From positions 8,224,001-8,288,000 of the forward strand of contig CM000151.3 of the NCBI GenBank assembly GCA_000004695.1: a stretch of 64,000 bases of DNA. The letters run 5' to 3'. This document shows positions 9,233-37,279 of the stretch, piece by piece. This DNA is from Dictyostelium discoideum. Lineage: Eukaryota. Every line of letters begins with the position of its first letter. Position 1 is the first letter of the stretch. Both the position numbers and the translations under genes were made by a program. The notes under the pieces are model-generated. The model was not told the origin of the DNA, did no database searches, and saw only the letters and a list, made by a program, of their open reading frames with translations.

Positions 9233-9288
9233 TAATAGTAATAGTAATAGTAATAGTAATAGTAATAGTAATAGTAATAGTAATAATC
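9233..9288. repeat. (agtaat)n hexanucleotide microsatellite, ~9 units
   Basis: Seen directly ('atgggtaatagtaatagtaat...'). Confidence 0.85.
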
Positions 9289-11036: not shown

Positions 11037-14000
11037 ATGACAGAAAAGACAGAAATATTATTTTGGAAAGTTTTTAAAAATAAATTTATATTCAACGAGA
11101 TATTTAATAAAGTTCACAACAATCAATGGATTGAATATGATGAACCAAATAAATATAATGTTTACAATAGATGTAAATTTAAATATACCCACTCTTTACA
11201 AATAATGATAAAAAATGATCTACTCCCATTAATTAAAGATAAAATCAAACATGGTGATCATATAGAAATAGATCGTAATTCAATAAAATATCTTTTTTCA
11301 AAATTATCAAAAACACCACCAGTACAACTATATAGTCAAATTGAAATAACTATTTTTAGTATAAATATTAATAATAATAATAATAATAAAAATAAATATA
11401 AAGATGAAGATTATTTAGAAATAATTGAATTATTAATGAAACATAGAAGAGATGAATTTGAAATTACTGATTTAATAAAGATGGCAGTAATTACAAATTC
11501 ACCAGATGTTATTAGATTATTAGTTAATGAACCATATTCAGTTATAATTCATCCAACAATATTTGAATTTGCAATTATAAAATCAAATTTAGCAACAATT
11601 AAAGAACTAATAAATTTAGAATCAATAAATTTTAAAAATTATGGTATTAAATTAATCAATGAAGAATTTAAAAGAAAATCATTATCATTGGCAGCACATA
11701 GAGAAACTCTTAAAACTACAATCACTGAATACATTTTTAATAATCCATCATTATATTCAATACCACCACCATTATCATTAATAAATAATCAAAAAGATGA
11801 TGAAGAAGGAATAAAATATGAATATATTGAATTTGAAGAATTTATAGGGTTAAAATCAAGCAGCTTATTAAAATCATTAATGGAATTTGATATAGTAAAA
11901 GGAAAGTTTAAAAAAAATACAGTGAATTCATTTCTCAAAATGTATCATCCATATGAAAGATTAAAAGTTAATATTCAAATTATACTAAAGTATGGTACTC
12001 CATCATTAGATACAAAAGAAATAAAAGAGATTTTAGATAAAATAGATAATATTGATGAGAAAGATTCAAATCATTTATATAAATTACAAGAATTGGCAGC
12101 ATTACAATTCCCAAACCAAAAAAACTTTTGTTTTTATTATTCAAAGAAGTATGGTAGAAATGATGAAAGTAAAGAACAAGTTAATGTTGGTATTCAAGAG
12201 CAATTAGATACATATTCAGATTGGGAAATTGAAAATGAGGTTGAAGAAGAAGAAGAAGAAAACGTTAATAAACAACGAGAGTATTTCAATAATTTTAATA
12301 AATTTAGAAAAGCAACAGTTTATAATTTATCCGAAAGATATTCATCTGTAACTTCTATTTATTTAAATACAATGAAAGAAGGAGATATTGATACAATGAA
12401 AAAGCTTGATAAAATCAAAATTTATGATGGTGCCTCGGGTCCAGTATTTAGATTAGATGTTTCAAGATTTCATTATTTCCAATTACCAAAAGAAAAAGAA
12501 GTTTTAATGAAAGTTTGGGATTATTTAAATGAACACTCTTTTAAACAGATTGGTAATAATTATGAAATTCTCATGGAATTCTTCTCAAGTGTAACAGATA
12601 TAATATCACCATTAGATTTGAAAATTAGTAATCTTGAAGATTTCATGATGGCGAGATTAAGTTTAATGTTATTTAATTCATTGACTAAAAATAATTTAAA
12701 TGTATTTCAATTATTATTAAATAGTTTTGATAAATTTAATTTTTTAAATGGAGTGGTAGTGGAAATGAACAAACTTTTGAATAAAGAAAAGATTTTATTT
12801 GGTAGTGATGGTAAAATCATACAACTTGATAATAAATATATCAATCAATTAATCAAATCAATTGAAATGGCCGTGGAAAAGTATAATAAATTCATTTCTG
12901 AACCAATAGAGAATGGAGTAGAGTCATTTAGCATCATTTTAAATCATTTATACGATCAATTAATTAGAATTAAAGGTATATCAGTCGATCAATTAGATTA
13001 TATTAGATCAATTATTCCTCAACAATTATTAGCATTCAAATGGGATGTCTATCGTATCTTTTTCTATCTCAATATCAGATCTCGAAAATTAACAAAATAC
13101 ATACTCTCTAGGCCTAGAGTTAGTCTGTTTACTGAAGGCAATCGAAATCATTCTCCTCTCTACAATGTCTATACAAGCGAAGGATCTTATACACTTGATT
13201 TAAGAAAATATTTAAAATTAGATTTATTCACATATGATTATATTTTAGGTAGAGAGAATACAAGTAGTAGTGGTAGTGGTGGTGCTTATGAAAATAATAA
13301 TAATAATAATAACAAGAAGTTTATAAATCAATTCGATACAATATTAAAAGAATTGATTAAACAATTATCACTTGATATTTGTACAGATGTTAGTAATATA
13401 GATGAAATTCTTGATGGTGAAGATTTCTTTATGGTTTCATTTAATAAAGATTTAAAATATAGTTTGGATATTGGTAGAAAAGATTTATTTTGGGAATTAT
13501 TAGATTGGATTCAACAATATATGATTAAAAATGAAAATTTAATGAGGTATCAAGTTTATCAATTCAATTCACCATATGAATCATTATTACCAACTAGTAC
13601 AATATTTTCAAAAGTAAAAATAATAGAATTACCACCACCAACAACAACAACAACAGCCACAGTAAAAGCAAAAGAAACAACAACAACAATTGGAAGTAGA
13701 ATATTAAAAATTGATAATTTTGAAAACCCAATAACAAATGAATCATCAGTTAAAATTGGTTGGAATGAAAATAAATTAATTGAACCATTCAAACCAATGT
13801 CAAAACTTATAAATTCATTTAAATTCCAACGAGAAGTCATACGATCAATTTGTAGAGTAATGAATGTAAATGAAATTCAAAGATTTATACAACACAATTT
13901 CTTTGTATCAAATTTCCATATTTTAATTTATTCATGTGCAGTATATAATAATAGAGATGACATAATGTCATTCCTATTAAATAATTATAATATCAAATTT

Positions 14001-14765
14001 AATACATTTCCAATTTTCTCTGAGGAAGAAAAGAAACATTCACAATATTTAGAATGTAAATTCATCCTTGAAAATCATTTTGAAAAAGTAAAGAATATTT
14101 CAAAATTAAAATTAGAATGGCGTGAAAGAAGAGATTTACAATTCCCATTGGTTTTATTAAATGCTTTTGTTTTTTTCCTTTGTAATCAATTCAATATCTC
14201 AACATATAATAAATTCATTCAAAATGAAGATTTAGAAATTAGAAAACAAGCAATTAAAGAAACAATTAAAACATTAATGGGGGTGCACGATGAAGATGAA
14301 AATGAAACATATAATTTAAATGAGAATTTTGTATCGGTAATAAAAGAAGAAAATCATAAAGTTTTACTCATTAAATCAATTATTGAGCAATCAGATACTC
14401 AACTATACTTTAAATCAGCTTTGGATCAAGTTTTATTGGAAATAATAAAGAAAAGAAAAACTGATGAAATTAATTCTCCATTGATTGAATATTGTGGAAA
14501 TTCATTCTCACAAGCTTTTTTTAATGGTGATATTAAAACTTGTAATCTCATTCTCAAATACTATCCAAATCAATTTAAAATCAATAAAGATTCAATCACT
14601 GAAGCTTTACAATTGCAAAATATTCATATTATTAAATATTATTACAAAGTTGAAAATTGTAAAAATTTAATTAATAATTTTAAAAATGATAATAATTTAT
14701 TAAAACATTTAAAAAATGAATTATCAAAACATCCAATTTATAAATATCATTTAACTTGGTTATAA
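11037..14765 (+). CDS. Tandem-family paralog B (1242 aa)
   Basis: Continuous ORF from ATG 11037 '[29 protein letters not shown]' to '...[12 protein letters not shown]'. Collinear with the other paralogs. It has a T-rich tract '[19 protein letters not shown]'. Confidence 0.7.
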   Translation: [1242 protein letters not shown]

Positions 14766-14842
14766 AACAAAATAAAAAATAATAATAATAAAAATAAATA
14801 AAAAAAACAAATAAATAAAATAATTAAATAAAAATGATAAAT

Positions 14843-14881
<39 letters not shown>

Positions 14882-15429
14882 GTAATGGTTCCATTCATAT
14901 CTTTTATATTTTATATCATTTTTAATCTCATGCAAAATCCAAATTAAAAATAAATAAAATTAAATGAATGTTAAAAAAAAAAAAAAAAAAAATGAAAAAT
15001 AACACAACAAATTCAAAAAGTGGGATTTTGTTAAAAGTAAGAATTTTTTTTTATGGCATAAAAAGGATTTGCCAGTGTTTTAGACAATTAAAACCAGTTT
15101 CTACCAAAAAAAAAATTAAAAATAAATATTAAAACTTTGTTTGTAAATTGTGGTATTTTGTTAAAATAAAAAAATTCCCACCAATATTTTTTTTTTTTTT
15201 TTTTTTTTGAAAAAAGATTTTTGCACAATTTTGATTTAACATTATTAAATATTTAATAAAATTGAATATTATTGGATTGGTCTCCTTAATTTTTCTTTTT
15301 TTTTTTTTATTTTTTCTAATTTCTTTCCAAAAAAAAAAAAAAAAAAAAAAAATTAAAAAAAAATTGAAAAACATTTTTCATGTTCATTTCTGTTGTAAAA
15401 TTAAAATAAATAAATAAAAAAAACAAAGA

Positions 15430-15758
15430 ATGACGGAAGAGATAGAAATATTATTTTGGAAAGTTTTTAAAAATAAATTTATATTCAACGAGATACTCAA
15501 TCAAGTTCACAACAATCGATGGATTGAATATGATGAACCATATAATTATAATGTTTACAATAGATGTAAATTTAAATATACATACTCTTTACAAATAATG
15601 ATAAGAAATGGTCTACTCCCTTTAATTAAAGATAAAATCAAACATGGTGATCATATAGAAATAGATCATAATTCAATAAAAATTCTTTTTTTAAAATTAT
15701 CAAAAACACAACCAATACAACCATATAATCAAAAAGAAATAACTCTTTTTAATATATC

Positions 15759-15818
<60 letters not shown>

Positions 15819-18168
15819 TAAAGATGAAGATTATTTAGAAATTATTGAATTATTTATGAAACATAGAAGAGATCAATTTGAAATTACTGATTTAATAAAG
15901 ATGGCAGTAATTACAAATTCTCCAGATGTTATTAGATTATTAGTTAATGAACCATATTCAGTTATAATTTATCCAACAGCATTTAAATTTGCAATTATAA
16001 AATCAAATTTAGAAACAATTAAAGAACTAATAAATTTAGAATCAATAAATTTTAAAAATTATGGTATTAAATTAATCAGTGAAAAATTTAAAAGAAAATC
16101 ATTATCATTAGCAGCACACAGAAAAACTCTTAAAACTTCAATCACTGAATACATTTTTAATAATCCATCATTATATTCAATACCACCACCATTATCATTA
16201 ATAAATAATCAAAAACAACAAACACAATCAAAAAATAAAAGATTAAAACTATCTGAAATTTTACTTTCAAATTTTAATAACAAAAACGATAATACTACTA
16301 GTGAAGAAGATGAAAATGATGGTGTAGAAGATGAAGATGTTCAAGAAAATGAAGACGATGGTGCCGAAGATGAAGGTGATGAAGATGAAGGTGAAGATGA
16401 TGGTGATGAAGATGATGAAGAAGAAGATGATGATGATGAAGATGAAGATGAAGATGATGATGATGATGATGATGATGATGAAGATGAAGATGATGAAGAA
16501 GATGAAGATGATGAAGAAGAAGATGATGATGAAGATGAAGAAGATGAAGAAGGTCATGACAAAAAAATAAAGTATGAATATATTAAATTTGAAGAATTTA
16601 TAAAATTAAAATCAAGCATTTTATTAAAATCATTTATGGAATTAGATATAGTAAAAGGAGAGTTTAAAAATAATAATGTGAATTCATTTCTCAAAATGTA
16701 TCATCCATATGAAAGATTAAAAGTTAATATTCAAATTATACTAAAGTATGGAACTCCATCATTAGATACAAAAGAAACAAAAGAGATTTTAGATAAAATA
16801 GATAATATTGATCAAAAAGATTCAAATCATTTATTAAAATTACAAGAATTTGCAGCATTACATTTCCCAAATCAAAAAAACTTTTATTTTTATTATTCAA
16901 AGAAGTATGGTGGAAAAATTAAACAACTTGGTAAAGTACCACCAAAAACTCCTCCTCAAGGCTCAGGTTCTGGAATTCTACAATACCATCATTTTTACAA
17001 AAATGAAAGTAGTTTTAATAATCAAGATGAAAGTGAACAAGATGAAGAAAAAGAAGAAGAAGTTGATGTTGGTATTCAAGAGGAATTCGAAATATATTCA
17101 GATTTGGAAATTGAAAATGAAGTTGAAGAAGAAGTAAACGTTAATAAACAACGAGAGTTTTTTAATAATTTTAATAAATTTAGAAAAGCAACAGTTTATA
17201 ATTTATCAGAAAGATATTCATCTGTAACTTCAATTTATTTAAATGCAATGAAAGAAGGAGATATTGATACAATGGAAAGATTAGATAAAAGTTGGAATCC
17301 AGTAATTAGATTAGATGTTTCAAGATTTCATTATTTCCAATTACCAAAAGAAAAAGAAGTTTTAATGAAAGTTTGGGATTATTTAAATGAACACTCTTTT
17401 AAACAGATTGGTAATAATTATGAAATTCTCATGGAATTCTTCTCAAGTGTAACAGATGTAATATCACCATTAGATTTGAAAATTAGTAATCTTGAAGATT
17501 TCATTATGAAGAGATTAGGTTTAATATTATTTAATACATTAATTATAAATAATTTAAATGTATTTCAATTATTATTAAATAGTTTTGACAACTTCAATTT
17601 TTTAAGTGAATTAGTAGTGGAAGTGAACAATCTTTTAAATAAAGAAAAGATTTTATTTGGTAGTGGTGGTAAAATCATGCAAATTGATAATAAATATATC
17701 AATCAATTAATCAAATCAATTGAAATGGCCGTGGAAAAGTATAATAAATTCATTTCTGAACCAATAGAGAATGGAGTAGAATCATTTAGCATCATTTTAA
17801 ATCATTTATACGATCAATTAATTAGAATTAAAGGTATATCAGTCGATCAATTAGATTATATTAGATCAATTATTCCTGAACAATTATTAGCATTCAAATG
17901 TGAACTCTATCGTACCTTTTTCTATCTCAATATCAGATCTCGAAAATTAACAAAATACATACTCACTAGGCCTAGAATTAGTCTGTATACTGAAGGCACT
18001 CCAAATCATTACGCAAATCATTCTGGTCTCTACAATATCCATTCAAATCTAGGACCTTCTGCATTAGATTTAAGAAAATATTTAAAATTAGATATATTCA
18101 CATATGATTATATTTTAGGTAGAGAGAATTCAAGTAGTAGTGGTAGTGGTGCTGATGACAATAATAAT

Positions 18169-18200
<32 letters not shown>

Positions 18201-19617
18201 CAGGAAGTTTATAAATCAATTCGATACAATATTAAAAGAATTAATTAAACAATTATCATTTGATATTTGTACAAACGTTAGTAACAGAGATAGTATTGTT
18301 GATGGTAAAGATTTCTTTAATTATTCATTAAATGCAGATTTAAGATTTAGTTTAGATATTGGTAGAAAAGATTTATTTTGGGAATTATTAGATTGGATTG
18401 AACAATATATGATTAAAAATGAAAATTTAATGAAGTATCAAGTTTATCAATTCAATTCACCATATGAATCATTATTACCAACTGGTGCAATATTTTTAAA
18501 TGTAAAAATAATAAAATTACCATCACCAAAAACAAAAACAACAAAAACAATTGAAAGTAGAATATTAAAAATTGATAATTTTGAAAAACCAATACCAAAT
18601 GAATCATCAGTTAAAATTGGTTGGAATACAGATAAATTAATTAAACCATTCAAACCAATTTCAAAACTTATAAATTCATTTAAATTCCAACAGGATGTCA
18701 TAGAATCAATTTGTAAAGTAATGAATGTAAATGAAATTCAAAGATTTATACAACACAATTTTTTTGTATCAAATTTCCAACTTTTAATATACACATATGC
18801 AGCATATAATAATAGAGATGATATAATGTCATTCCTATTAAATAATTATAATATCAAATTCAATGCATTTCCAACTTTCTCTGAAGTAAATAAGAATTAT
18901 TCACAATATTTAGAATGTAAATTCATCTATGAAAATCATTTTGAAAAAGTAAAGAATATTTCAAAATTAAAATTAGATTGGCTTGAAAAAAGATATTTTG
19001 AATTTCCATTGGTTTTATTAAATTCTTTTGTTGTATACCTTTGTGATCAAGATAATATCTCAGACTATAATCAATTCATTCAAAATAATAGTTTACAAAT
19101 TAGAAATAAAGTAATGAAAAAAACAATTATTATATTAATGGAGATACTTTATAATGATGAAGATGAAGATTATAATTTAGATAAGAGTTTTGCATCGTTA
19201 ATAAAATATGAAAATCATAAAGTTTCACTCATTAAATCAATTATTGAACAATCAGATACTCAATTATACTTTAAATCAGCTTTGGTTCAATCTTTATTAG
19301 AATTAAAAGAGAGAAGAAAAATTAGAACTCGATCCATTGATTATGATGAAAATCCATTCATACATGCTTTTATTAATGGTGATATTAAAACTTGTAATCT
19401 CATTCTTAAATATTATCCAAATCAATTCAAAATCACTAAAAATTTAATTAGTGATACTTTACGAATGAAAAATATTCATATTATTAAATATTATTATAAA
19501 GTTGGAAATTGTAAAAATTTAATTAATAATTTTAAAAATGATAATAATTTATTAAAACATTTAAAAAAATTATTATCAAAACATCCAATTTATAAATATC
19601 ATTTAACTTGGTTATAA
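15430..19617 (+). CDS. Tandem-family paralog C (1395 aa) carrying a ~100-residue pure D/E acidic expansion
   Basis: Continuous ORF. 16290-16560 encodes an almost uninterrupted Asp/Glu tract ('EEDENDGVEDEDVQENEDDGAEDEGDEDEGEDDGDEDDEEEDDDDEDEDEDDDDDDDDDEDEDDEEDEDDEEEDDDEDEEDEEGHD') at the position where other paralogs have only a few acidic residues. The termini are as in the family. Confidence 0.7.
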
Positions 19618-19810: not shown

Positions 19811-20666
19811 CAACTTGTAAATTAATTTACATCTATTGTAAACATTATATTTATTTGGAAACACTCACTCTTTACAAATAATGATAAAAAATGATCTACT
19901 CCCATTAATTAAAGATAAAATCAAACATAATGATCACATAGAAATTGATCATTTTTCCATTAAAGATCTTTTTTTAAAATTATCAAAAAAACAACCACCA
20001 CAAGAAGAAACTTTAATAGAAAATAATAATAATATTAATAATAATAATAAAAATAAATATAAAGATGAAGACTATTTAGAAATTATTGAATTATTAATGA
20101 AATATAGAAGAGATGAATTTGAAATTACTGATTTAATTGTGATGGCTAAATTATAATTGAATATGGTTCATTAACTAATAATTATTAGTTAATGAACCAT
20201 ATTCAATTATAATTTATCCAACAACATTTGAATTTGCAATTAAATGTTTAAATTTAGAAACAATTAAAGAACTAGTAAATTTAGAATCAATAAATTTTAA
20301 AAATTATGGTATTAAATTAATTAGTGAAGAATTTAAAAGAAAATCAGCACGTAGAAAAACTCCTAAAACTACAATCGCTGAATACATTTTTAGTAATCCA
20401 TCATTATATTCAATACCACCATTGTCATTAATAAATAATCAAAAACAACAAGAGCCGTCAACAAATAAAAAACTAAAATTATCTGAATCGAATTTAAATA
20501 AAAAGAACAATATTAATAACAGTGATAATAGTGATAATAGTGACGAAGGAAGTGAAAATGATGAGGAAGATTATGAAAATGAAAATGATATTGATAGTGA
20601 TAATTGTGATAATAATGAAGGATGTGAAAATGATGAAGAAGATGAAGAAAACGAAGATATTGATAC

Positions 20667-20754
<88 letters not shown>

Positions 20755-21729
20755 AAACAACAACAAAAACAACAAATACAACTACTACAAGTAAAAAATG
20801 TTAATAAACGACGAGAATTTCTTAATGGTTTTGATATACCATTAACTTTTAATGATTCATCCAGTTCACTAAAAACCTTACTTTATTTAAGTGCAATGAG
20901 AGAAGGAGATGTTGATAAAATCAAAATGTATGATGGTGCTTTTAGTGCAAGATTTAGATTGGATGTTTCAGGATTTCATTATTTCAAACTACCAAAAGAA
21001 AAAGAAGTTTTAATGAAAGTTTGGAATTATTTTAATGAACACTCTTTTAAACAGATTGGTAATAATTATGAAATTCTCATAAAATTCTTCTCAAGTGTAA
21101 CAGATGTAATACCACCTTTAGATTTGAAAATTAGTAAACTTCAAGATTTCATGATGGGGGGATTAAGTTTAATGTTATTTAAATCATTACTTAAAAATAA
21201 TTTAAATGTATTTCAATTATTATTTAATAGTTTTGATAACTTTAATTTTGGAACTGGAGAACTAGGTCAAATGAGAGATTTTATTAATAGAGAAAATGTT
21301 TTATGTTGTAAACTGAAGGAACTTGATAATAACTATATCAACAAATCAATCAAATCAATTGAAATGGTTGTGGAAAAGTTTAAAAAACCCATTGATAAAC
21401 CAATAAAGGATCGAGTGGAATCATATAGCATCATTATAAATTATTTATATGATCAGTTAATTAGATTTAAAGGTATATCAGTCGATCAATTAGAATATAT
21501 TAGATCAATTATTCCTCAACAATTATTTACATTTAAATTGGATGTCTATCGTATCTTTTTCCATCTCAATATCAGATCTCCAAAATTATCAAAATACATA
21601 CTCTCTGGGCCTAAAATTAAAATGTTTAATCAAAGACGTCGAAATGATTCTGCTTTCTACAATTATTTAAAACAATATTTAAATTTATATTTATTCACAT
21701 ATGATTATATTTTGGGTAGAGATAATGCA

Positions 21730-21764
<35 letters not shown>

Positions 21765-22908
21765 GTACATAACTCAATTCGATACAATATTAAAAGAATT
21801 AATTAAACAATTATCACATGATATTTGTACAAACCTTAGTAATAGAGATGAGATTGTTGATGGTAAAGATAGAGATTTCTTTAAGCATTCATTAAATGCA
21901 GATTTAAAATTCAGTTTAGATATTGGTAGAAAAGATTTATTTTGGGAATTATTAGATTGGATTGAACAATATATGAATAAAAATGAAATTTTAATGAAGC
22001 ATCAAGTTTATCAATTCAATTCACCATATGAATCATTATTACCAACTGGCATAATATTTTCAAATTTAAAAATAATAGAATTACCACCACCAAAAACAAC
22101 AGTAACAACAGTAACGACATCAACAATTGAAAGTAGAATTTTAAAAATTGATAATTTTGAAAAACCAATACCAAATGAATCATCAGTTAAAATTAATTGG
22201 AATTCAGATAAATTAATTGAACCATTTAAACCAATTTCAAAACCTATAAATTCATTTAACTTCCAACAAGATGTCATACAGTCAATTTGTAGAGTAATGA
22301 ATGTAAATGAAATTCAAAGATTTATACAACACAATTTCTTTGTATCAAATTTCCACATTTTAATTTATTCAAGTGCATTATATAATAATAGAGATGATAT
22401 AATGTCATTCCTATTAAATAATTATAATATCAAACTCAATGGATTTCCAACTTTCTCCAAGGCAGACAATCAACATTCACAATATTTAGAATGTAAATCC
22501 ATCTTTGAAAATCATTTTGAAAAAGTAAAGAATATTTCAAAATTAAAATTAGAATGGTGTGAAAGTAGAGATTTACAATTCCCATTGGTTTTATTAAATG
22601 CTTTTGTTGTATACCTTTGTAACGATCGTAATTTCTCAACCTATAGTGAATTCATTCAAAATGATAATTTAGAAATTAGAAATAAAGCAATTAAAGAAAT
22701 AATTAAAATATTAAAGTATCACTATGAAGATGATGAGGAAGAATATAATTTAGATGAGAATTTTGCATCTATAATAAAAAATCAAAATCATAAAGTTTCA
22801 ATCATTCAACCAATTATTGAACAACCAGATACTCAATTATACTTTAAATCAGTTTTAGATCATGTTACATTAAAAATAAAAAAGGAAAGAAAAATCTGTG
22901 GCGCTTAA
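19811..22908 (+). pseudogene. Rearranged/decayed tandem-family copy: 5' end inverted, internal palindromic duplication, frameshift, and loss of the conserved C-terminal ~70 codons
   Basis: 19811-19858 is the reverse complement of family codons ('ccaaataaatataatgtttacaatagatgtaaatt'), followed directly by forward-oriented sequence. ORF 19881-20156 ends in a stop. A perfect 38-nt palindrome lies at 20163-20200 ('atggttcattaactaataattattagttaatgaaccat'). The 828-aa ORF 20422-22908 ends 'KERKICGA*' without the '[11 protein letters not shown]' tail. Remnants of that tail ('gaaaatcatttaactttgttat') lie in the spacer at ~22975 and ~23125. Confidence 0.7.
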
Positions 22909-23428: not shown

Positions 23429-23747
23429 ATGGAAATTCTAGAAATATTGTTTTGGAAAGTTTTTAAAAATAAATTTATATTCAATGAGATATTAAATCAA
23501 ATTCACAACAATGAATGGGTTGAATATGATGAACCAAATAAATATAATGTTTACAATAGATGTAAATTTGGAAACACTCACTCATTGGAAATAATGATCA
23601 AAAATGATCTACTCCCATTAATTAAAGATAAAGTCAAACATAATGATCATATAAAAATTGATCATTTTTCCATTAAAAATCTTTTTTTAAAATTATCAAA
23701 AAAACAACCACAACAACAAAATAATCAAGAACAAACCATAAACAATG

Positions 23748-23826
<79 letters not shown>

Positions 23827-26800
23827 TAAATATAAAGATGAAGATTATTTAGAAATTATTGAATTATTTATGAAATATAGAAGAGATGAATTTGAAATTA
23901 CTGATTTAATAATGATGGCAGTAAAAACTTATTCTCCAGATATTATTAGATTATTAGTTAATGAACCATATTCAGTTATAATTTATCCAACAACATTTGA
24001 ATTTGCAATTATAAATTCAAATTTAGCAACAATTAAAGAACTAATAAATTTAGAACCAACAAATTTTAAAAACTATGGTATTAAATTAATTAGTGAAGAA
24101 TTTAAAAGAAAATCATTATCATTGGCAGCACATAGAAAAACTCTTAAAACTACAATCACTGAATACATTTTTAGTAATCTATCATTATATTCAGTACCAC
24201 CACCATTATCATTATTAAATAATCAAATACAAGAACAACCATCAACAAATAAAAGATTAAAACTATCTGAAACTTCAAAACCAAATAATAATAATGACGA
24301 TAATAATAATGATAATGATAATAATGATAATGAGGAAATTAAATATGAATATATTAAATTTGAAGAATTTATAAAATTAAAATCAAGCAATTTATTAAAA
24401 TCATTTATGGAATTGGATATAGTAAAAGGTAGTTTTAAAAAGAATTTTAATTCATTTATTAAAATGTATCACCCATATGAGAGATTAAAAGTTGATATTA
24501 GAATTATATTAAAATATGGAGATATAATGTTACAACAAGTAAGTGGAGAAATTTTAGATAAAATGAATAAAATCGATACAAATAAACAAAAAGGTTTTAA
24601 TAAATTAAAAGAATTAAGAAAATTAACAGTAATAGAATTTCCAAAACAAAATAACTTTTATTACTATTATTGGAAAGCATATGGTGAAAAAATTAAAGGA
24701 CTTGATAGAATACCACCAAAATCAATTTCAAACCCAGATGAACAAGATTTTTTTCAATACCTTGATAGTAATGAAGAAAAACAATATGTTGAAGAAGATT
24801 ATTTTTTTGGAAATGGAAATGATGAAGAAGAAAACACTTCATTGGAGAATTATAATAATAATAATATTAATAATAATAATATTAATAATGAAGAAGAAGA
24901 AGAAGATGATGATGATGATGATGATGATGAAGAAGATGAAGAAGATGAAGATGAAGAGAATGAAGACGATGGAAATGAAGACGATGGAAATGATCAAGAA
25001 CTACCTGAAATGGATTCTGGATCTGATATAGATATTGAAAATGAAGTTGATGAAGAAACTATTAATGATTTAGAAAATAAAAAGAGATTTATAAATGGTT
25101 TTAATAAATTTAGAAAAGCATCAGTTTATGATATTTCTAATAGATATTCAGATTTAGATAATTCATATTTAAAAGCAATTAAAGAATGTAATATTGAAAT
25201 GTTAGAAGAGGTGAATAAAAATAATCCAAATTTTACATTGAATGTTTCCAAATTTCATTATTTCCAATTACCAACAGAATCTGAAGATGTGTTAAAGCTT
25301 TGGAAATTCTTTGTTGGACATGGATTTAAACAATTTCAATATAGTCAAGAAATATTCCTAGAATTCGTTTCAAGTGTAACCGATGTATTATCACCATCAA
25401 AATTGGAGATAGTAACACTTTGTGCTCCTCTTTTGAGAAGAATAGAATTTTTATTATTTGATACACTATTTAGAAAGAAATTTAACGCATTTGAAATATT
25501 ATTTAAAAGATTCTCTTTTTTAGAACCATTTTCAAAAGATGAATATACTGAACTTTTAAATCAGGAAAAGGTTATATTCAACATCAATGGTAAATTAGTG
25601 CAATTTGATAACAGCCATCTCAATCAAACAATCAGATTAATTTCATTAGTAGTGGCAAAGTTTCACCTACAAGCTTTAAACGCACCTCAGCATCCTAGTA
25701 TTAATAATAGTACTAAACCAGCACAACAATCATATAGTATAATTATAAACTATTTATATGATCAGTTACTTAGAATTAAAGGTTTAACAATTAATCACTT
25801 AGAACTTGTTAGATCAATTATTCCTGAACATTTCTTATCAGATGCACACAGTCAAGTGTTTCGTGTCTTTTTCTATCTTAATATCAGATCTTCAAAATTT
25901 TCAAAATACATAATTGAAAGACCTGGTGTTGATACTTTTATGTATATTTCAGAAGATTATGCAGAAAACTATAATTGTAGTGAACCACCAACTACAAATG
26001 TTGATGATATTGGTTTTGATATTAGAAAATATTTAAATTTAGATATCTTTACATATGATTTTATATTAGGTAGAGAATCAATTCAATCATATGGTACTGA
26101 TACTGTTGATAGTGTTGATAAGTTTAATAATAATAATAATAATAAAAAAAATTATAAAAAGTATATAACTCAATTCGATACAATATTAAAAGAATTAATG
26201 AAACAATTATCACATGACATTTGTACAAATATTGATAGAGATAGAATCACTGGAGGTCAAGATTTCTTTAATTATTCATTAAGTGCAGATTTAAGATTTA
26301 GTTTAGCCATTGGTAGAAAAGATATATTTTGGGAATTATTAGATTGGATTCAACAATATATTACTTTAAATGAAAATTTAATTAAATATCAAGTTTATCA
26401 ATTTAATTCACCATATGAATCATTATTACCAACTAGTACAATATATCCAAATGTAAAAATAATTAAAAAAGAATTGCCACCATCAACAACAAAAACAAAA
26501 ACAACATCAACAACAACAGCAGCAACAACAACAACAACTGAAAGTAGAATATTAAAAATTGATAATTTTGAAAATCCAATACCAAATGAATCATCAGTTA
26601 AAATTAATTGGAATGAAAATAAATTAGATGAATCATTTAAACCAATTTCAAAACTTATAAATTCATTTAAATTTTTTGAAGATGTATTGGATTCAATTTG
26701 TAAAGTAATGAATGTAAATGAAATTCAAAGATTTATTCAATATAATTTCTTTGAAACAAGTTTCCAATTTGCAATTTACTCTTATTTAGTATTTATGAAT

Positions 26801-27616
26801 AGAGATGATGTACTTTCATTCCTATTGAATAATTATAATATAGAGTTTGACATATTCCCATTCTTTCTACCAGAAAGAAGATATTCTCAATATTTAGAAT
26901 GTAAATTCATATTTGAAAATCATTTCGAAAGAGTAAAGAATATTTCAAATTTAAATATAGAATGGTGTGAAAGAAGAGATTTAGATTTCCCATCCACTGT
27001 ATTGAATGGGTTTGTTAAATTTCTTTGTAAAGAAAAGAATATCGCAATCTATAATCAGTTTATTCAAGAAAATGGTAATTTAGAAATTAGAAATAAAATT
27101 ATTAAAGAAACTATTGAAGTAATGAAAATAGAACTAGATGCAAACATTGATGAAGATGAAGATGATGATACTGAGAATTTCGCATTCATATTAAGAAATC
27201 AAAAACATAAAGTTTTACTCATTCAATCAATTATTGAACAACCAGATACTCAATTATACTTTAAATCAGCTTTAGATCAAGTTTTATTAGAATTAAAAGA
27301 GAAAAGAAAAACTGATAAAATTAATTCTCCATTCATTGAAAATCTTAAAAATCCATTCTTACAATCTTTTATTTATGGTGATATTAAAACTTGTGATATC
27401 ATTCTCAAATATTATCCAAATCAATTTAAAATCACTAAAGATTCAATCACTAAAGCATTAAAACTCGATAGAATCCATATTATTAAATATTATTATAAAG
27501 TTGATAATTGTAAAAATTTAATTAATAATTTTAAAAATGATAATAATTTATTAAAACATTTAAAAAATGAATTATCAAAACATCCAATTTATAAATATCA
27601 TTTAACTTGGTTATAA
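23429..27616 (+). CDS. Tandem-family paralog D (1395 aa)
   Basis: The ORF track begins at a GTG at 23399; the first ATG is at 23429 ('[30 protein letters not shown]'). Near-identical to paralog E. Contains a long poly-N tract and an acidic tract (24895-24990). Confidence 0.7.
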
Positions 27617-28135: not shown

Positions 28136-28450
28136 ATGGAAATTCCAGAAATATTATTTTGGAAAGTTTTTAAAAATAAATTCATATTCAATGAGATATT
28201 AAATCAAATTCACAACAATGAATGGGTTGAATATGATGATCCAAATAAATATAGTGTTTACAATAGATGTAAATTTGGAAACACTCACTCATTGGAAATA
28301 ATGATAAAAAATGATCTACTCCCATTAATTAAAGATAAAATCAAAAATAATCATCATATAAAAATTGATCATTTTTCCATTAAAAATCTTTTTTTAAAAT
28401 TATCAAAAAAACAACCACAACAACAAAATATTCAAGAAGAACAAACCATA

Positions 28451-28512
<62 letters not shown>

Positions 28513-30782
28513 TAAATATAAAGATGAAGATTATTTAGAAATTATTGAATTATTTATGAAATATAGAAGAGATGAATTTGAAATTACTGATTTAATAAAG
28601 ATGGCAGTAAAAACTTATTCACCAGATGTTATTAGATTATTAGTTAATGAACCATATTCAGTTATGATTTATCCAACAACATTTGAATTTGCAATTATAA
28701 ATTCAAATTTAGCAACAATTAAAGAACTAATAAATTTAGAACCAACAAATTTTAAAAACTATGGTATTAAATTAATTAGTGAAGAATTTAAAAGAAAATC
28801 ATTATCATTAGCAGCACATAGAAAAACTCTTAAAACCACAATCACTGAATACATTTTTAGTAATCCATCATTATATTCAATACCACCACCATTATCATTA
28901 ACAAATAATCAAACACAAGAACAACCATCAACAAATAAAAGATTAAGACTATCTGAAACTTTAGAATCAAATAACAATAGTAATAATAATAATAATAATG
29001 ATGATGATAATAATGATAATAATAATGATAATGAAGAAATTAAATATGAATATATTAGATTTGAAGAATTTATAAAATTAAAATCAAGCAATTTATTAAA
29101 ATCATTCATGAAATTGGATATAGTAAAAGGTAGTTTTAAAAAGAATTTTAATTCATTTATTAAAATGTATCATCCATATGAGAGATTAAAAGTTGATATT
29201 AGAATTATATTAAAATATGGAGATATAATGTTACAACAAGTAAGTGGAGAAATTTTAGATAAAATGAATAAAATCGATACAAATAAACAAAAAGGTTTTA
29301 ATAAATTAAAAGAATTAAGAAAATTAACAGTAATAGAATTTCCAAAACAAAATAACTTTTATTACTATTATTGGAAAGCATATGGTGAAAAAATTAAAGG
29401 ACTTGATAGAATACCACCAAAATCAATTTCAAACCCAGATGAACAAGATTTTTTTCAATACCTTGATAGTAATGAAGAAAAACAATATGTTGAAGAAGAT
29501 TATTTTTTTGGAAATGGAAATGATGAAGAAGAAAACACTTCATTAGAGAATAATAATAATATTAATATTAATAATAATAATGAAGAGGAAGAAGAAGATG
29601 ATGATGAAGAAGAAGAAGAAGGTGATGAAGATGAGGATGATGGAAATGATCAAGAACTACCTGAAATGGATTCTGGATCTGATATAGATATTGAAAATGA
29701 AGTTGATGAAGAAACTATTAATGATTTAGAAAATAAAAAGAGATTTATAAATGGTTTTAATAAATTTAGAAAAGCATCAGTTTATGATATTTCTAATAGA
29801 TATTCAGATTTAGATAATTCATATTTAAAAGCAATTAAAGAATGTAATATTGAAATGTTAGAAGAGGTGAATAAAAATAATCCAAATTTTACATTGAATG
29901 TTTCCAAATTTCATTATTTCCAATTACCAACAGAATCTGAAGATGTGTTAAAGCTTTGGAAATTCTTTGTTGGACATGGATTTAAACAATTTCAATATAG
30001 TCAAGAAATATTCCTAGAATTCGTTTCAAGTGTAACCGATGTATTATCACCATCAAAATTGGAGATAGTAACACTTTGTACTCCTCTTTTGAGAAAAATA
30101 GAATTTTTATTATTTGATACACTATTTAGAAAGAAATTTAACGCATTTGAAATATTATTTAAAAGATTCTCTTTTTTAGAACCATTTTCAAAAGATCAAT
30201 ATACTGAACTTTTAAATCAGGAAAAGGTTATATTCAACATCAATGGTAAATTAGTGCAATTTGATAACAGCCATCTCAATCAAACAATCAGATTAATTTC
30301 ATTAGTAGTGGCAAGGTTTCACCTACATACTTTAAACGCACCTCAGCATCCTAGTAGTATTAATAATAGTACTAAACCAGCACAACAATCATATAGTATA
30401 ATTATAAACTATTTATATGATCAGTTACTTAGAATTAAAGGTTTAACAATTAATCACTTAGAACTTGTTAGATCAATTATTCCTGAACATTTTTTATCAG
30501 ATGCACACAGTCAAGTGTTTCGTGTCTTTTTCTATCTTAATATCAGATCTTCAAAATTTTCAAAATACATAATTGAAAGACCTGGTGTTGATACTTTTAT
30601 GTATATTTCAGAAGATTATGCAGAAAACTATAATTGTAGTGAACCACCAACTACAAATGTTGATGATATTGGTTTTGATATTAGAAAATATTTAAACTTA
30701 GATATCTTTACATATGATTTTATATTAGGTAGAGAATCAATTCAATCACATGGTATTAATACTGCTGATAGTGCTGATAAGT

Positions 30783-30837
<55 letters not shown>

Positions 30838-31193
30838 GTACAAAACTCAATTCGATACAATATTAAAAGAATTAATGAAACAATTATCACTTGATATTTG
30901 TACAAATATTGATAGAGATAGAATTACTGGAGGTCAAGATTTCTTTAATCATTCATTAAGTGCAGATTTAAAATTCAGTTTAGATATTCGTAGAAAAGAT
31001 ATATTTTGGGAATTATTAGATTGGATTCAACAATATATGATTAAAAATGAAAATTTAATTAAATATCTAGTTTATCAATTTAATTCACCATATGAATCAT
31101 TATTACCAACTAGTACAATATATCCAAATGTAAAAATAATTAAAAAAGAATTGCCACCATCAACAACAAAAACAAAAACAACAACATCAACAT

Positions 31194-31224
<31 letters not shown>

Positions 31225-32299
31225 TGAAAGTAGAATATTAAAAATTGATAATTTTGAAAATCCAATACCAAATGAATCATCAGTTAAAATTAATTGGAAT
31301 GAAAATAAATTAGATGAATCATTTAAACCAATTTCAAAACTTATAAATTCATTTAAATTTTTTGAAGATGTATTGGATTCAATTTGTATAGTAATGAATG
31401 TAAATGAAATTCAGAGATTTATTCAATATAATTTCTTTGAAACAAATTTCCAATTTGCAATTTACTCTTATTTAGTATCTATAAATAGAGATGATGTACT
31501 TTCATTCCTATTGAATAATTATAATATAGAGTTTGACGTATTCCCATTCTTTCAACCTGAAAGAAGATATTCTCAATATTTAGAATGTAAATTCGTATTT
31601 GAAAATCATTTCGAAAGAGTAAAGAATATTTCAAATTTAAATATAGAATGGTGTGAAAGAAGAGATTTAGATTTCCCATCCACTGTATTGAATGGGTTTG
31701 TTAAATTTCTTTGTAAAGAAAAGAATATCGCAATCTATAATCAGTTTATTCAAGAAAATGGTAATTTAGAAATTAGAAATAAAATTTTTAAAGAAACAAT
31801 TGAAGTAATGAAAAAAGAATTAGATGAAAACATTGAAGATGAAGATGATGATACTGAGAATTTCGCATTCATATTAAGAAATCAAAAACATAAAGTTTTA
31901 CTCATTCAATCAATTATTGAACAACCAGATACTCAATTATACTTTAAATCAGCTTTAGATCAAGTTTTATTAGAATTAAAAGAGAAAAGAAAAACTGATA
32001 AAATTAATTCTCCATTAATTGAAAATCTTAAAAATCCATTCTTACAATCTTTTATTTATGGTGATATTAAAATTTGTGATATCATTCTCAAATATTATCC
32101 AAATCAATTTAAAATCACTAAAGATTCAATCACTAAAGCATTAAAATTCGATAGAATCCATATTATTAAATATTATTATAAAGTTGATAATTGTAAAAAT
32201 TTAATTAATAATTTTAAAAATGATAATAATTTATTGGAACATTTAAAAAATGAATTATCAAAACATCCAATTTATAAATATCATTTAACTTGGTTATAA
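28136..32299 (+). CDS. Tandem-family paralog E (1387 aa), recent duplicate of D
   Basis: The first ATG is at 28136 (the ORF track starts at a GTG at 28106). The protein aligns with D essentially residue-for-residue. Differences are concentrated in the lengths of poly-N, acidic and poly-T tracts. The upstream and downstream spacers also match those of D. Confidence 0.7.
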
Positions 32300-33034: not shown

Positions 33035-33322
33035 ATGGAAATACATGAAATATTATTTTGGAAAGTTTTTAAAAATAAATTTATATTAAATGAAATATTT
33101 TATCAAATTCACAGCAATCAATGGGTAGAATATGATGAATCAAATAAATATAATGTTACCAATAGATGTAAATTTGGAAACACTCACTTCTTACAAATAA
33201 TGATAAAAAACGATCTACTCTCATTAATTAAAGATAAAATCAAACATGGTGATCATATAGAAATTACTCCCTCTTCAATAAAAGAACTTTTCTCAAAATT
33301 ATCAAAAATAAAACAACCATCA

Positions 33323-33390
<68 letters not shown>

Positions 33391-33874
33391 TAAAAATAAA
33401 TATAAAGATGAAGATTATTTAGAAATTATTGAATTATTAATGAAACATAGAAGAGATGAATTTGAAATTTATGATTTAATAAAGATAGCAGTAGCTACTT
33501 TTTCACCAGATGTTATTAGATTATTAGTTAATGAACCATATTCAGTTATAATTTATCCAACAACATTTGAATTTGCAATTATAAATTCAAATTTAGAAAC
33601 AATTAAAGAATTAGTAAATTTAGAACCAATAAATTTTAAAAATTATGGTATTAAATTAATAACAGAACAATTCAAAAGAAAATCATTATCATTAGCAACC
33701 CAAAGAACAACTCTTAAAACTACAATCACTGAATACATTTTTAGTAATCCATCACTACACTCAATACCACCACCATTATCACTAATAATAAATAATCAAC
33801 AAGACCCATCAACAAATAAAAGATTAAAAACATCTGAAACTTTACTTTCAAATTCAAATAATAACAATAACAAC

Positions 33875-33906
<32 letters not shown>

Positions 33907-34477
33907 TAATAATAATAAAAATAATAATGAAGAAATAAAATATGAATATATTAAATTTTATGACTTTTTAAAATTAAAATCAAGTAATTTATTAAAATCA
34001 TTTATGGAATTAGATATAGTTTTAAAAGGATTAAAAAAGAAATTAAATTCATTTATTAAAATGTATCATCCATATGAAAGATTACAAATTGATATTAGAA
34101 TTATACTAAAGTATGGAGATACAATTTCAGATATAAAAAAAAGAGAAGAGATTTTAGAAGAAATGAATCAAATTGATACAAATAAAAAAACAGGTTTTAA
34201 TAAATTAAAACAGTTAAGAAAATTAGTAGCAATAGAATTCCCAAATCAAAAAAACTTTTATTACTATTATTGGAAAGCATATGGTGATAAAATTAAAGAA
34301 CTTGGTAAAGTACCACCAAAAATTCCACCTCAAAACACAACTGATGAAATTTTTGAATACCTTTATTCTGAAGAATATTTAAATCAATTTAATGATGATG
34401 ATTATGGTGATGATGAAGAACCACAAAATAATAATAACAACAATAACAATAACAATAATAATAACAATATTATTATT

Positions 34478-34562
<85 letters not shown>

Positions 34563-35766
34563 TAAATAATAATGAGATAGAGAATGAAGGAGGGAATATT
34601 CAAGTTGAAAATGAAGGAAATGTTGAAGATATGGATGGTGATGAATTATTAGAGCAATTAGAGACAGTAGTGAATGATGGTGAATCAGATTCTGATAGGG
34701 AATTTAATAATGAAGTTGATGAAGAAAAGGGAGATACAATTACTATTAAAAGAGAATATATTAATAATTTTAATAAATATAAAAAAGAAACAGTTTATAA
34801 TATATCCAATAGATATTCAAATTCTACCAATTTATTTTTGGATTCAATTAGGGAATGTGATATTGAAACCTTAGAAAAGATAGATCAACTCCATAATTTA
34901 GAGTTTAAATTGGATGTTTCAAGATTTCATTATTTTCAATTACCAAAAGAAAGAAAAGATATAATGAAAGTTTGGGAATACTTTAATCATCATGGATTTA
35001 AACAATTTGGGTCAAGTCAAAAAGCTTTTATTGAATTTGTTTCAAGTGTGGCAGATGTGATATCACCACTTTCAGAATTGAAAATAACAAATACTTGTAA
35101 ATCAATCTCTAGAAACTATGATTTTATATTATATAGAACATTATTTAGAAAGAAATTTAATGTTTTCGAATTACTTTTAAGACATTCCACTCTTTCTTGG
35201 TTTCCATTTTTAGAGAATGATCAATTCTTGGAGATTTTAAATCAAGAAAAGGTGATATTCAATCATCAATGTGAAGTGATTCAATTTGATAATAAATATC
35301 TTGATCAAATAATCAGATTAATTGAATTCAGTGTTGGGAAATTTCAATTGGTTGAAAAAGCTAGAGATCATTTATTGGCACAAGGATTTCAAGTTGGTAT
35401 TAGAATTGTAAATTATTTATATGATGAATTAATTAGAATTAAAGGTGTGACAATAGATCAATTAGAATATGTTAGATCAATTATTCCAAAGGAAGCATTA
35501 AATACACCATATGAAATCTATCGAGTTTTCTTTTATCTTAATATCAGATCTCCAAAATTAACAAGATACATAATGTATAGACCTGCAACCATTGAATTCA
35601 TATCAACCTCTGAATTATTTATTAGTCATTATAATTGTAGTGATCCAACAACAATTGATGAAATTGGTTTTGATTTTAAAAAATATTTAAATTTAGATAT
35701 ATTCACATATGATTATATATTAGGTAGAGAGAATATTAGAAATGTTTCTATTAATAGTAGTAGTAT

Positions 35767-35816
<50 letters not shown>

Positions 35817-37279
35817 ATAAAAGATTTATAACTCAATTCGATACAATATTAAAAGAATTAATGAAACAATTATCACATGATATTTGTACAAACATTAGTA
35901 ATAGAGATAATATTGTTCATGGTCAAGATTTCTTTAATCACTCATTAAATGCAGATTTAAGATTTAGTTTAGCTATTGGTAGAAAGGATTTATTTTGGGA
36001 ATTATTAGATTGGATTCAACAATATATAAATAAAAATGAAAATTTAATGAAGTATCAAGTTTATCAATTTAATTCACCATATGAATCATTATTACCAACT
36101 GGTAGTTTATTTTCAAATGTAAAAACAATTATAAAAGAATTACCAACGACAACAACAACAACAACAAGAACAAGAACGACAACAACATCAACAACAACTG
36201 AAACTAAAATATTAAAAATTGATAATTTTGAAAGACCAATACCGAATGAATCAACAATTCAAATTGATTGGAATGAAAATAAATTAATTGGACCATTTAA
36301 ACCAATTCGTAAACTTATAAATTCATTTAAATATATTGATATTGTTATGAATTCAATTTGTAAATTAATGGATGTAAATGAATTTCAAAGATTTATTCAA
36401 TATAATTTCTTTGAATCAGATTTTCAATTTACAATTTATTCATATGCAGTATATAATAATAGAGATGATTTAATGTCATTCCTATTAAATAATTATATTA
36501 TTGAAATTGATAGATTCCCATTCTTTCATCCAGAAAGAGGCTATTCACAATATTTAGAATGTAAATTCATCTTTGAAAATCATTTCGAAAGAGTAAAGAA
36601 TCTTTCAAATTTAACTTTGGAATGGTGTGAAAGAAGAGATTTAGATTTCTCATTCTCTCTATTGAATGATTTTATTAAATATCTTTGTAAAGCAAAGCAT
36701 ATAACAACCTATAATCAGTTTATTCAAGATGATAATTTACAAATTAGAAATAAAATTATTAAAGAAATAATTGAAGAATTAAAGAAACAATATGACTCGA
36801 TCTTAGATGTAGTTGAAGATGAAGATATTAAAAAAGAGAATATCGCATGTCTATTAAAAAATCAAAAACATAAAGTTTCACTCATTCAATCAATTATTGA
36901 ACAACCAGATACTCAATTATACTTTAAATCAACTTTAGAAAAAATTATATTAGAATTAAAAGAGAAAAGAAAAATTAATGAAATTAATTCTCCATTCATT
37001 AAAGATGATCAAAATCCATTCTTGGATTCTTTTATTCATGGTGATATTAAAACTTGTAATATCATTCTCAAATATTATCCAAATCAATTTAAATTCACTA
37101 CAAGTTCAATCACTAAGGCATTAGGATTAGATAAAATTCATATTATTAAATATTTTTATAAAGTTGATAATTGTAAAAATTTAATTAATAATTTTAAAAA
37201 TGATAATAATTTATTAAAACATTTAAAAAATGAATTATTAAAACATCCAGTTTATAAATATCATTTAACTTGGTTATAA
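33035..37279 (+). CDS. Tandem-family paralog F (1414 aa), most divergent intact copy; contains a ~55-residue uninterrupted poly-Asn run and a poly-Ser run
   Basis: The first ATG is at 33035 (the ORF track starts at a TTG at 33029). Poly-N lies at 34430-34570. '(S)n' lies at 35755-35815, at the position where paralog A has its S/G-rich tract. The C-terminus is '...[13 protein letters not shown]'. Confidence 0.7.

What the first reader, a model, noticed from the sequence alone, without database searches (positions are those of the whole stretch)
16290..16560. Paralog-specific explosive expansion of an acidic coding microsatellite (GAW)n
At the linker following 'NKRLKLSE...', paralog C has ~90 consecutive Asp/Glu codons (gat/gaa/gag repeats). 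Paralogs A and B have only about five to ten acidic residues. D and E have about 30-40. F has a poly-N run of 17 interrupted by a few Lys ('[26 protein letters not shown]') instead. The same position therefore toggles between acidic and polar low-complexity states across paralogs. This is consistent with replication slippage driving rapid functional or charge diversification of the linker. Comparable length variation occurs at the poly-N linker after residue ~100 and at the poly-T linker before 'ESRILKIDNFE'.
Basis: seen in the sequence. Interest (0 to 1): 0.5.

Follow-up and report, generated by a model that had tools for sequence, protein, structure and literature searches.

The report
Acidic repeat linker in Dictyostelium paralog
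One gene in a tandem array of uncharacterised Dictyostelium discoideum genes carries a real 84-codon Asp/Glu-rich repeat in a floppy linker, which is an ordinary, old example of the coding triplet-repeat variation this organism is already known for.

Summary
The tract is real. Paralog C (window 15430-19617) has an 84-codon segment (16300-16551) with 72 Asp/Glu (39 GAT, 1 GAC, 32 GAA, no GAG). Its longest uninterrupted D/E run is 49, not ~90. A second assembly encodes the identical protein, so it is not an assembly artefact.

The window is D. discoideum (A = DDB_G0277585, B = DDB_G0277653). The family is Dictyostelium-only, with a weak ankyrin hit and an all-alpha solenoid-like C-terminal part.

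At this linker they have 9-10 acidic residues. Their long acidic runs lie in a different linker about 200 residues downstream.

The same linker is low-complexity in every family member seen: poly-N, D8, (EN)n, D/S/Y. Slippage at a tolerant linker is therefore supported. "Explosive" is not. The orthologue in a lineage 6-7% diverged already has a 77-codon acidic tract with a near-identical 5' half. The two differ only by in-frame indels in the 3' half.

B's short linker is a secondary deletion. C evolves near neutrally (N:S 52:11), and its orthologue is a pseudogene in the other lineage. No evidence for functional charge diversification was found. This is a known phenomenon of low interest.

The parts
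16300..16551 (+). Acidic tract of paralog C (aa 291-374): 84 codons, 72 D/E, imperfect (GAT/GAA)n
   Evidence: TRF periods 6-36 with 74-83% matches
16405..16551 (+). Uninterrupted 49-residue D/E run (aa 326-374). This is the variable 3' half and contains (GAT)9 at 16453-16479.
   Evidence: all in-tract deletions relative to ACTFIW fall here
16198..16566 (+). Whole linker 2 of C (aa 257-379), between the ankyrin-like N-terminal helices (...SIPPPLS) and the IKYEYI block. Includes the conserved basic motif KNKRLKLSE.
   Evidence: coil with the lowest pLDDT in a poor AF2 model
15430..19617 (+). Paralog C, intact single-exon ORF of 1395 aa
   Evidence: identical gene call in GCA_054883475.1
4651..8523 (+). 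Paralog A (DDB_G0277585). Linker 2 at 5341-5448: N8 plus 5 acidic residues.
11037..14765 (+). Paralog B (DDB_G0277653). Linker 2 at 11778-11810 is reduced to LINNQKDDEEG by a secondary deletion.
19875..22908 (+). Cx, a degenerate copy sister to B and C. It has an acidic S/D/N/E linker (from 20443) followed by (CAA)41 polyQ at 20667-20790, a frameshift in the N-terminal part, an internal deletion and a truncated end.
23429..27616 (+). Paralog D. Linker 2 at 24212-24337 is N/D-rich with 9 D/E. A separate 23-residue D/E run lies in linker 3 at 24890-24958.
28136..32299 (+). Paralog E. Linker 2 at 28898-29038 is N/D-rich with 10 D/E. Separate D/E runs lie in linker 3 at 29582-29641.
33035..37279 (+). 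Paralog F. Linker 2 at 33782-33934 is poly-N (N15 K N4 K N3). Linker 3 holds (AAT)49 at 34427-34573.

Best explanation
The tract is a cryptically simple coding repeat of the two AT-rich acidic codons, GAT and GAA. It lies in an unstructured inter-domain linker of one member of a Dictyostelium-restricted, tandemly arrayed, fast-evolving family of about 1,300-aa helical-repeat proteins (weak ankyrin hit at the N-terminus, alpha-solenoid-like C-terminal part).

The linker tolerates almost any hydrophilic low-complexity insert. Point changes (AAT<->GAT, AAA<->GAA) seed new codons in an ancestral N-rich tract. Replication slippage or unequal exchange of 3n units then lengthens, shortens and homogenises it.

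The acidic bias arose in the ancestor of the Cx/B/C clade. B later lost its linker by deletion. C kept and enlarged it before the AX4 and ACTFIW lineages split. Since then only the pure 3' half has changed.

Shown: the anatomy, reproducibility, age, 3n indel pattern, phylogeny, and weak constraint on C. Inferred: slippage as the mechanism, disorder of the linker, and the absence of a specific function.
For: - Organism and family. The family has 29 representatives among 1.84e9 proteins. All ten that were looked up by name are Dictyostelium 'hypothetical proteins'.
- Pfam gives only Ank_2, 28.6 bits against a cutoff of 27.3. There are no PDB sequence relatives.
- The AF2 model of the C-terminal 835 aa (pLDDT 74.8) is all-alpha. 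Its low-confidence segments include the poly-N/S and poly-T tracts. Foldseek finds only generic solenoids at E >= 0.04.
- Tract composition and short perfect runs.
- The same tract is present in a second assembly.
- The orthologous tract in ACTFIW is 77 aa with 62 D/E. Its 5' half is near-identical, and only 3n indels occur in the 3' half.
- Linker states across paralogs and other family members.
- Tree (Cx,(B,C)), (F,(D,E)), (A,DDB_G0277643).
- Relaxed constraint on C: AX4-branch N:S is 52:11, not different from the neutral 3.32 (p=0.37), while B gives 67:35 (p=0.01 against neutral). Crude dN/dS across the family is 0.46-1.1.
- Literature: coding triplet repeats are exceptionally abundant and length-variable in D. 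discoideum and appear to evolve mainly by mutation and drift (PMC3460934). Slippage indels are frequent even in coding regions (PMC7466956; review PMC9234386).
Against: - Perfect repeat runs are short ((GAT)9), so simple slippage is not especially favoured now.
- The AX4 3' half is a pure 49-residue D/E run, while ACTFIW has runs of about 10. That could reflect selection for purity in AX4, or decay in the ACTFIW pseudogene.
- The literature says coding repeats are dominated by N, Q, T and S, and that others are often eliminated. A long acidic tract is therefore less typical (PMC3460934).
- C keeps a 1395-codon ORF with no frameshift, while the ACTFIW copy has 11. Some selection therefore still acts on C.
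- Linker disorder rests on a poor model (pLDDT 39.9).
Confidence: 0.75

Rival explanations
1. Adaptive charge diversification. Selection favours different linker charges and lengths in different paralogs. In C, for example, the acidic tract next to the conserved basic KNKRLKLSE motif could act as a functional acidic domain, either masking a basic or NLS-like motif or binding basic partners.
For: - The linker state differs sharply between paralogs.
- Acidic runs recur at the same site in distant family members P0064 and P0065.
- The AX4 tract is purer than the ACTFIW one.
- C's ORF is intact despite a high N:S ratio. This is also compatible with diversifying selection.
Against: - C's orthologue is a pseudogene in ACTFIW, yet it keeps the tract.
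- N:S on the C branch is indistinguishable from neutral.
- B functions under constraint with the linker deleted.
- Published comparisons find coding repeats as variable as matched non-coding ones (PMC3460934).
- No functional data exist for any family member.
Confidence: 0.15
2. C is a gene on its way to loss. The tract grew because constraint on the whole gene has lapsed, and the intact ORF in AX4 is only a transient state.
For: - dN/dS is about 1.1 for C against both B and ACTFIW-C.
- The AX4-branch N:S of 52:11 is at or above the neutral value.
- The ACTFIW orthologue has 11 frameshifts.
- The neighbouring Cx and the copy at 587-2674 are already degenerate.
- The exact C-F proteins are absent from the large protein collection that holds the AX4 models of A and B.
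Against: - C has zero frameshifts or stops in 1395 codons. The other two frames have 128 and 268 stops, and the ACTFIW copy acquired 11 frameshifts over the same time (P about 2e-5 if the rates were equal).
- The tract was already large before the lineages split, so it is not a late symptom of decay.
Confidence: 0.1
3. Sequencing or assembly artefact, or a non-coding (intron) stretch misread as coding.
For: Low-complexity repeats are a classic source of assembly error. The AX4 gene models splice out or skip low-complexity parts of A and B.
Against: - The identical tract is present in a second assembly record.
- An orthologous tract is present in a diverged isolate.
- The tract is in frame, at 36% GC within a window that is about 20% GC.
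- A gene caller calls it as one exon.
Confidence: 0.01

Closest known systems
Coding trinucleotide simple-sequence repeats (amino-acid repeat tracts) of Dictyostelium discoideum (Eichinger et al. 2005 as cited in PMC3460934; Scala et al. 2012, PMC3460934; review PMC9234386)
   Same: - In-frame triplet repeat built from AT-rich codons.
- Located in a hydrophilic, apparently unstructured segment.
- Varies in 3n steps between lineages and paralogs.
- Little sign of selection.
   Different: - It encodes Asp/Glu rather than the dominant Asn/Gln/Thr/Ser.
- It is a two-codon mosaic with short perfect runs, (GAT)9 and (GAA)3, rather than a long perfect microsatellite.
- Its 5' half is a stable interrupted sequence conserved across 6-7% divergence.
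Cryptically simple, slippage-generated low-complexity regions in fast-evolving eukaryotic proteins (for example the polyQ/polyN hypervariable regions discussed in PMC5358852). This comparison rests on my own knowledge.
   Same: - A mosaic of a few related codons.
- Paralog-specific lengths.
- Embedded in disordered linkers.
   Different: Here the same site can be followed across at least 15 family members within one genus. It switches composition between N, D, D/E, EN and D/S/Y.
Long acidic D/E tracts of nuclear or chromatin proteins (for example ANP32, nucleoplasmin or nucleolin-type acidic tails). This is a resemblance recalled from memory, not tested.
   Same: A long, nearly pure D/E stretch lies next to a short basic motif (KNKRLK).
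   Different: There is no sequence or domain homology (Pfam gives only a weak Ank_2 hit). Sister paralogs lack the tract, and nothing is known about localisation.

Membership tests
D. discoideum coding triplet-repeat (amino-acid repeat) tract | Tandem in-frame trinucleotide units inside an ORF | tested here: met
   72 of 84 codons are GAT, GAA or GAC, in frame within a 1395-codon ORF. TRF detects the array.
D. discoideum coding triplet-repeat (amino-acid repeat) tract | Long perfect single-motif run (Scala et al. count perfect runs, and 3064 loci have >=20 units) | tested here: not met
   The longest perfect runs are (GAT)9 and (GAA)3. The tract is a two-codon mosaic, so it is a cryptically simple region rather than a classical perfect microsatellite.
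D. discoideum coding triplet-repeat (amino-acid repeat) tract | Length differences between lineages in multiples of three, confined to the repeat | tested here: met
   AX4 against ACTFIW shows +9, -12, -12 and -27 bp in the tract and at its 3' edge. The 11 frameshifting indels of the ACTFIW pseudogene all lie outside the tract, the nearest (+4 bp at 16285) about 15 bp upstream of it. Only two lineages were available.
D. discoideum coding triplet-repeat (amino-acid repeat) tract | Lies in a non-structured, surface or linker segment | tested here: inconclusive
   In the AF2 N-terminal model, residues 250-386 are coil with pLDDT 23-42, but the whole model is poor (mean 39.9). In the better C-terminal model (74.8), the other low-complexity tracts lie within low-pLDDT loops.
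Ankyrin-repeat proteins (Pfam Ank_2) | Significant match to an ankyrin-repeat profile | tested here: inconclusive
   C aa 136-208 scores 28.6 bits against a gathering cutoff of 27.3. F gives no Ank hit.
Phase-variable contingency locus (SSR on/off switching) | The repeat unit is not a multiple of 3, so length change shifts the frame | tested here: not met
   The unit is 3 nt and all observed tract indels are 3n.
Acidic-tail chromatin or nuclear chaperone families | A recognisable chaperone or LRR/NAP/nucleoplasmin domain accompanies the acidic tract | tested here: not met
   No such Pfam domain was found in C or F. There are no PDB sequence relatives. Foldseek finds only generic alpha-solenoids at E >= 0.04.

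The most novel reading that the evidence does not exclude
The family could be under diversifying, conflict-type or recognition-type selection. C keeps an intact ORF with N:S at or above neutral. The array shows birth-and-death turnover, divergence between 'D. discoideum' isolates at this locus is very high, and a Tgr-like gene lies nearby. On this reading, the fixed linker site would be a tolerated 'evolvability cassette', where slippage supplies heritable charge and length variants that selection uses to tune each paralog.
Probability: 0.06. Interest if true: 0.5.

Novelty: new member of a known kind. Interest (0 to 1): 0.15.

Why it matters
It matters little beyond annotation. It shows that one linker site in a Dictyostelium-only gene family is a recurrent sink for low-complexity inserts of changing composition. 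It also shows that a long acidic tract can persist with a stable 5' half and a labile 3' half across a deep split. This gives one concrete, datable case for how coding repeats in this repeat-rich genome are born (AAT to GAT seeding), grow, are purified and are deleted. It also flags gene-model problems in the AX4 annotation of this array. It does not open a new question.

Tried and rejected
- Protein homology searches with C and with its tract-free N-terminus were lossy. They returned only some family members plus acidic-tract noise such as BAZ2B. No named homologue was found.
- Exact look-up of C-F in the protein collection found nothing.
- I looked for further C orthologues in ACTFIR and ACTFIY by walking loci L003-L006. 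These hold only A-like, F-like and Cx-like copies, so tract polymorphism could be assessed in just two lineages.
- The AF2 model of the N-terminal half was too poor (pLDDT 39.9) for fold search.
- Foldseek of the C-terminal model against the PDB gave no significant hit, and PDB sequence searches were empty.
- I considered triplex or H-DNA formation by GAA repeats and rejected it, because (GAA) runs are at most 3 units and T interrupts the purine strand.
- I considered an intron and rejected it (in frame, 36% GC, called as one exon).
- No tRNA genes are in the window.
- The Eichinger 2005 paper is not held in the library.

Full report
**What the window is.** GC content is about 20%. Seven large same-strand ORFs are mutually 53-64% identical to the first. 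Best hits are D. discoideum AX4 chromosome-2 hypothetical proteins. A matches DDB_G0277585 at 100% from residue 56. B matches DDB_G0277653, which is identical apart from a 15-codon stretch of B's poly-N linker that the AX4 model skips, with one changed residue at the junction. The array on the + strand is:
- a broken copy at 587-2674
- A at 4651-8523
- B at 11037-14765
- C at 15430-19617
- a degenerate copy Cx at about 19875-22908
- D at 23429-27616
- E at 28136-32299
- F at 33035-37279

The rest of the window holds ordinary genes: a Stealth-family gene, a Vps39-like gene, an aspartyl protease and a Tgr-like Ig/TIG gene.

**Checking the observation.** In C, residues 291-374 (window 16300-16551) read SEEDENDGVEDEDVQENEDDGAEDEGDEDEGEDDGDEDDEEEDDDDEDEDEDDDDDDDDDEDEDDEEDEDDEEEDDDEDEEDEE. 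This is 84 codons with 72 D/E and 12 interruptions. The codons are 39 GAT, 1 GAC and 32 GAA, with no GAG.
- The longest uninterrupted D/E run is 49 residues (aa 326-374), not about 90.
- The longest perfect DNA runs are (GAT)9 and (GAA)3.
- D+E is 12% elsewhere in C, so chance is excluded (P about 1e-53).

At the same linker:

| Paralog | Linker content |
|---|---|
| A | N8 plus 5 acidic residues |
| B | only LINNQKDDEEG |
| D, E | N/D-rich, with 9 and 10 D/E |
| F | N15-K-N4-K-N3 |

The claimed variation at the poly-N and poly-T linkers is real.

**Not an artefact.** Exact-sequence look-up finds the same 1395-aa product called as a single-exon gene in GCA_054883475.1. That record matches 24.2 kb of the window with no mismatches. 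It differs only by four indels, all in intergenic A/T homopolymers. Every coding triplet tract from the 3' part of A through the 5' part of E, including C's acidic tract, is therefore identical in two assemblies.

**Age of the tract.** A 12-kb contig of another isolate (locus tags ACTFIW, L002) carries B and C orthologues in the same order. They are 94.3% and 92.8% identical in DNA to AX4.
- Its C orthologue has a 77-residue acidic tract with 62 D/E.
- The 5' half (EEDENDGVEDED..VQE.NEDDGAEDEGDEDE) is almost identical base for base.
- The 3' half differs by in-frame indels (+9, -12, -12, and -27 at the 3' edge) and by GAT/GAA/GGT changes.
- The longest pure run is about 10 in ACTFIW and 49 in AX4.
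- Divergence of 6-7% is about 80 times the species-wide pi of 0.08% (PMC2895654).

The expansion is therefore old, not explosive. Only its 3' half is labile.

**Phylogenetic polarity.** An NJ tree on 531 gap-free C-terminal columns gives (A,DDB_G0277643), (Cx,(B,C)) and (F,(D,E)).
- Cx also has an acidic S/D/N/E linker. Its orthologue in 'D. cf. discoideum' has N19 plus (EN)12.
- B lacks not only the tract but also the KQQ..NKRLKLSE motif conserved in all other copies, and B's ACTFIW orthologue shares this deletion. B's short state is therefore a secondary deletion.
- Acidic bias dates to the Cx/B/C ancestor.
- Distant family members (31-32% identical to C) have D/E or D/N runs at the same position.
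- Other copies in other isolates have N27, N46+, D8, or N26 followed by a D/S/Y-rich stretch.
- D, E and F differ here by 15-30 bp in-frame indels and AAT<->GAT substitutions. This shows how a poly-Asn tract can be seeded with Asp codons.

**What the protein family is.** HMMER against 1.84 billion representatives finds only 29 proteins. The ten looked up by name are all Dictyostelium (discoideum group and D. dimigraforme) 'hypothetical proteins'.
- Pfam gives one marginal Ank_2 hit in C (aa 136-208, 28.6 bits against 27.3) and nothing for the C-terminal 835 aa.
- PDB sequence searches are empty.
- AF2 on the C-terminal 835 aa with a 29-sequence alignment gives pLDDT 74.8 and pTM 0.68. The model is all-helical and solenoid-like. 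Its low-confidence segments include the poly-S/G/N and poly-T tracts.
- Foldseek against the PDB finds only generic HEAT/ARM/TPR-type solenoids at E >= 0.04.
- The N-terminal model is poor (pLDDT 39.9), but it places residues 250-386 in coil between helical blocks.

**Constraint.** Crude Nei-Gojobori dN/dS is 0.46 for B (AX4 against ACTFIW), 1.10 for C (AX4 against ACTFIW), 1.11 for B against C, and 0.6-0.9 for the other pairs. Single-step codon changes were polarised with the sister gene as outgroup:

| Branch | N:S | Against neutral 3.32 (PMC7466956) |
|---|---|---|
| C, AX4 | 52:11 | p = 0.37 |
| C, ACTFIW | 33:10 | not tested |
| B, two branches | 31:18 and 36:17 | combined p = 0.01 |

C against B gives p of about 0.02. 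The ACTFIW C copy has 11 frameshifting indels, while B on the same contig has none. AX4 C has none in 1395 codons, although its other two frames carry 128 and 268 stops. C is thus the least constrained intact member of the array. Something still keeps its ORF open in AX4.

**Interpretation.** The simplest account is a weakly constrained, probably disordered linker. In it, point mutation between AT-rich codons (AAT/GAT, AAA/GAA) and slippage or unequal exchange of 3n units generate and reshape low-complexity inserts.
- C carries an old acidic insert whose purer 3' half is still turning over.
- This matches what is published for D. discoideum. Coding triplet repeats are about 50-fold denser than in other taxa, highly length-variable, as variable as matched non-coding repeats, and seemingly governed by mutation and drift (PMC3460934). 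Slippage indels are frequent even in coding DNA (PMC7466956; review PMC9234386).
- The only atypical aspects are the amino acids involved (D/E rather than N/Q/T/S) and the mosaic rather than perfect repeat.
- No evidence here supports functional charge diversification, although it is not excluded.

**Verdict.** The feature is real but its size was over-stated, and the D/E counts were mis-assigned. The slippage mechanism is plausible. 'Explosive', 'paralog-specific' and 'functional' are not supported. It is a further example of a well-known phenomenon, and interest is low.

Noticed in passing
window 19875-22908: Cx is a degenerate family copy. It lacks the first ~45 codons and has a frameshift in the N-terminal part. 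The IKYEYI...YYSKKY block is replaced by a (CAA)41 polyQ tract (20667-20790), and the copy ends early. The same fused architecture, with an (EN)12 tract, exists in 'D. cf. discoideum' (L004 from 19704).
   Followed up: partly
L002 7218-11572: The C orthologue in isolate ACTFIW has 11 frameshifting indels, while the adjacent B orthologue has none. It is therefore a pseudogene there. NCBI nevertheless models it as a 1219-aa protein with introns. It also has 66- and 105-bp insertions that enlarge the second (linker 3) acidic/Q-rich tract.
   Followed up: yes
window 11037-14765 and 4651-8523: The AX4 gene models look imperfect. DDB_G0277653 skips 15 codons of B's poly-N linker as a 45-bp 'intron'. 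DDB_G0277585 starts 55 codons into A's ORF. The exact C, D, E and F proteins are absent from the 15-billion-protein collection, although C is a called gene in GCA_054883475.1.
   Followed up: partly
window 587-2674: Three ORF pieces (587-1090, 1860-2348, 2330-2674) are fragments of a further, broken family copy upstream of A.
   Followed up: no
window 11037-19617 vs L002: AX4 and ACTFIW differ by 6-7% in DNA at this locus. This is about 80 times the published species-wide diversity (0.08%, PMC2895654). Either ACTFIW is a deep cryptic lineage labelled D. discoideum, or this array is unusually divergent.
   Followed up: no
window 34427-34573; 38292-38475: Longer triplet arrays than the acidic tract occur nearby. 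(AAT)49 lies in F's linker 3. An N-rich array of about 61 units lies in the N-terminal part of a Stealth-family gene (38203-39749, split into two ORFs).
   Followed up: partly
L005 12944-14338: A DDE_1 transposase gene sits inside the family cluster of isolate ACTFIR, between two family copies.
   Followed up: no
window 64-152; 9232-9285; 37908-38064: Three intergenic tandem repeats were not examined further: a 44-bp x2 repeat (97% match), a perfect (GTAATA)9, and a 79-bp x2 repeat (92%).
   Followed up: no
window 54055-56433: A Tgr-like gene (TgrO1-type Ig domain plus IPT/TIG) lies about 17 kb downstream of the array.
   Followed up: no
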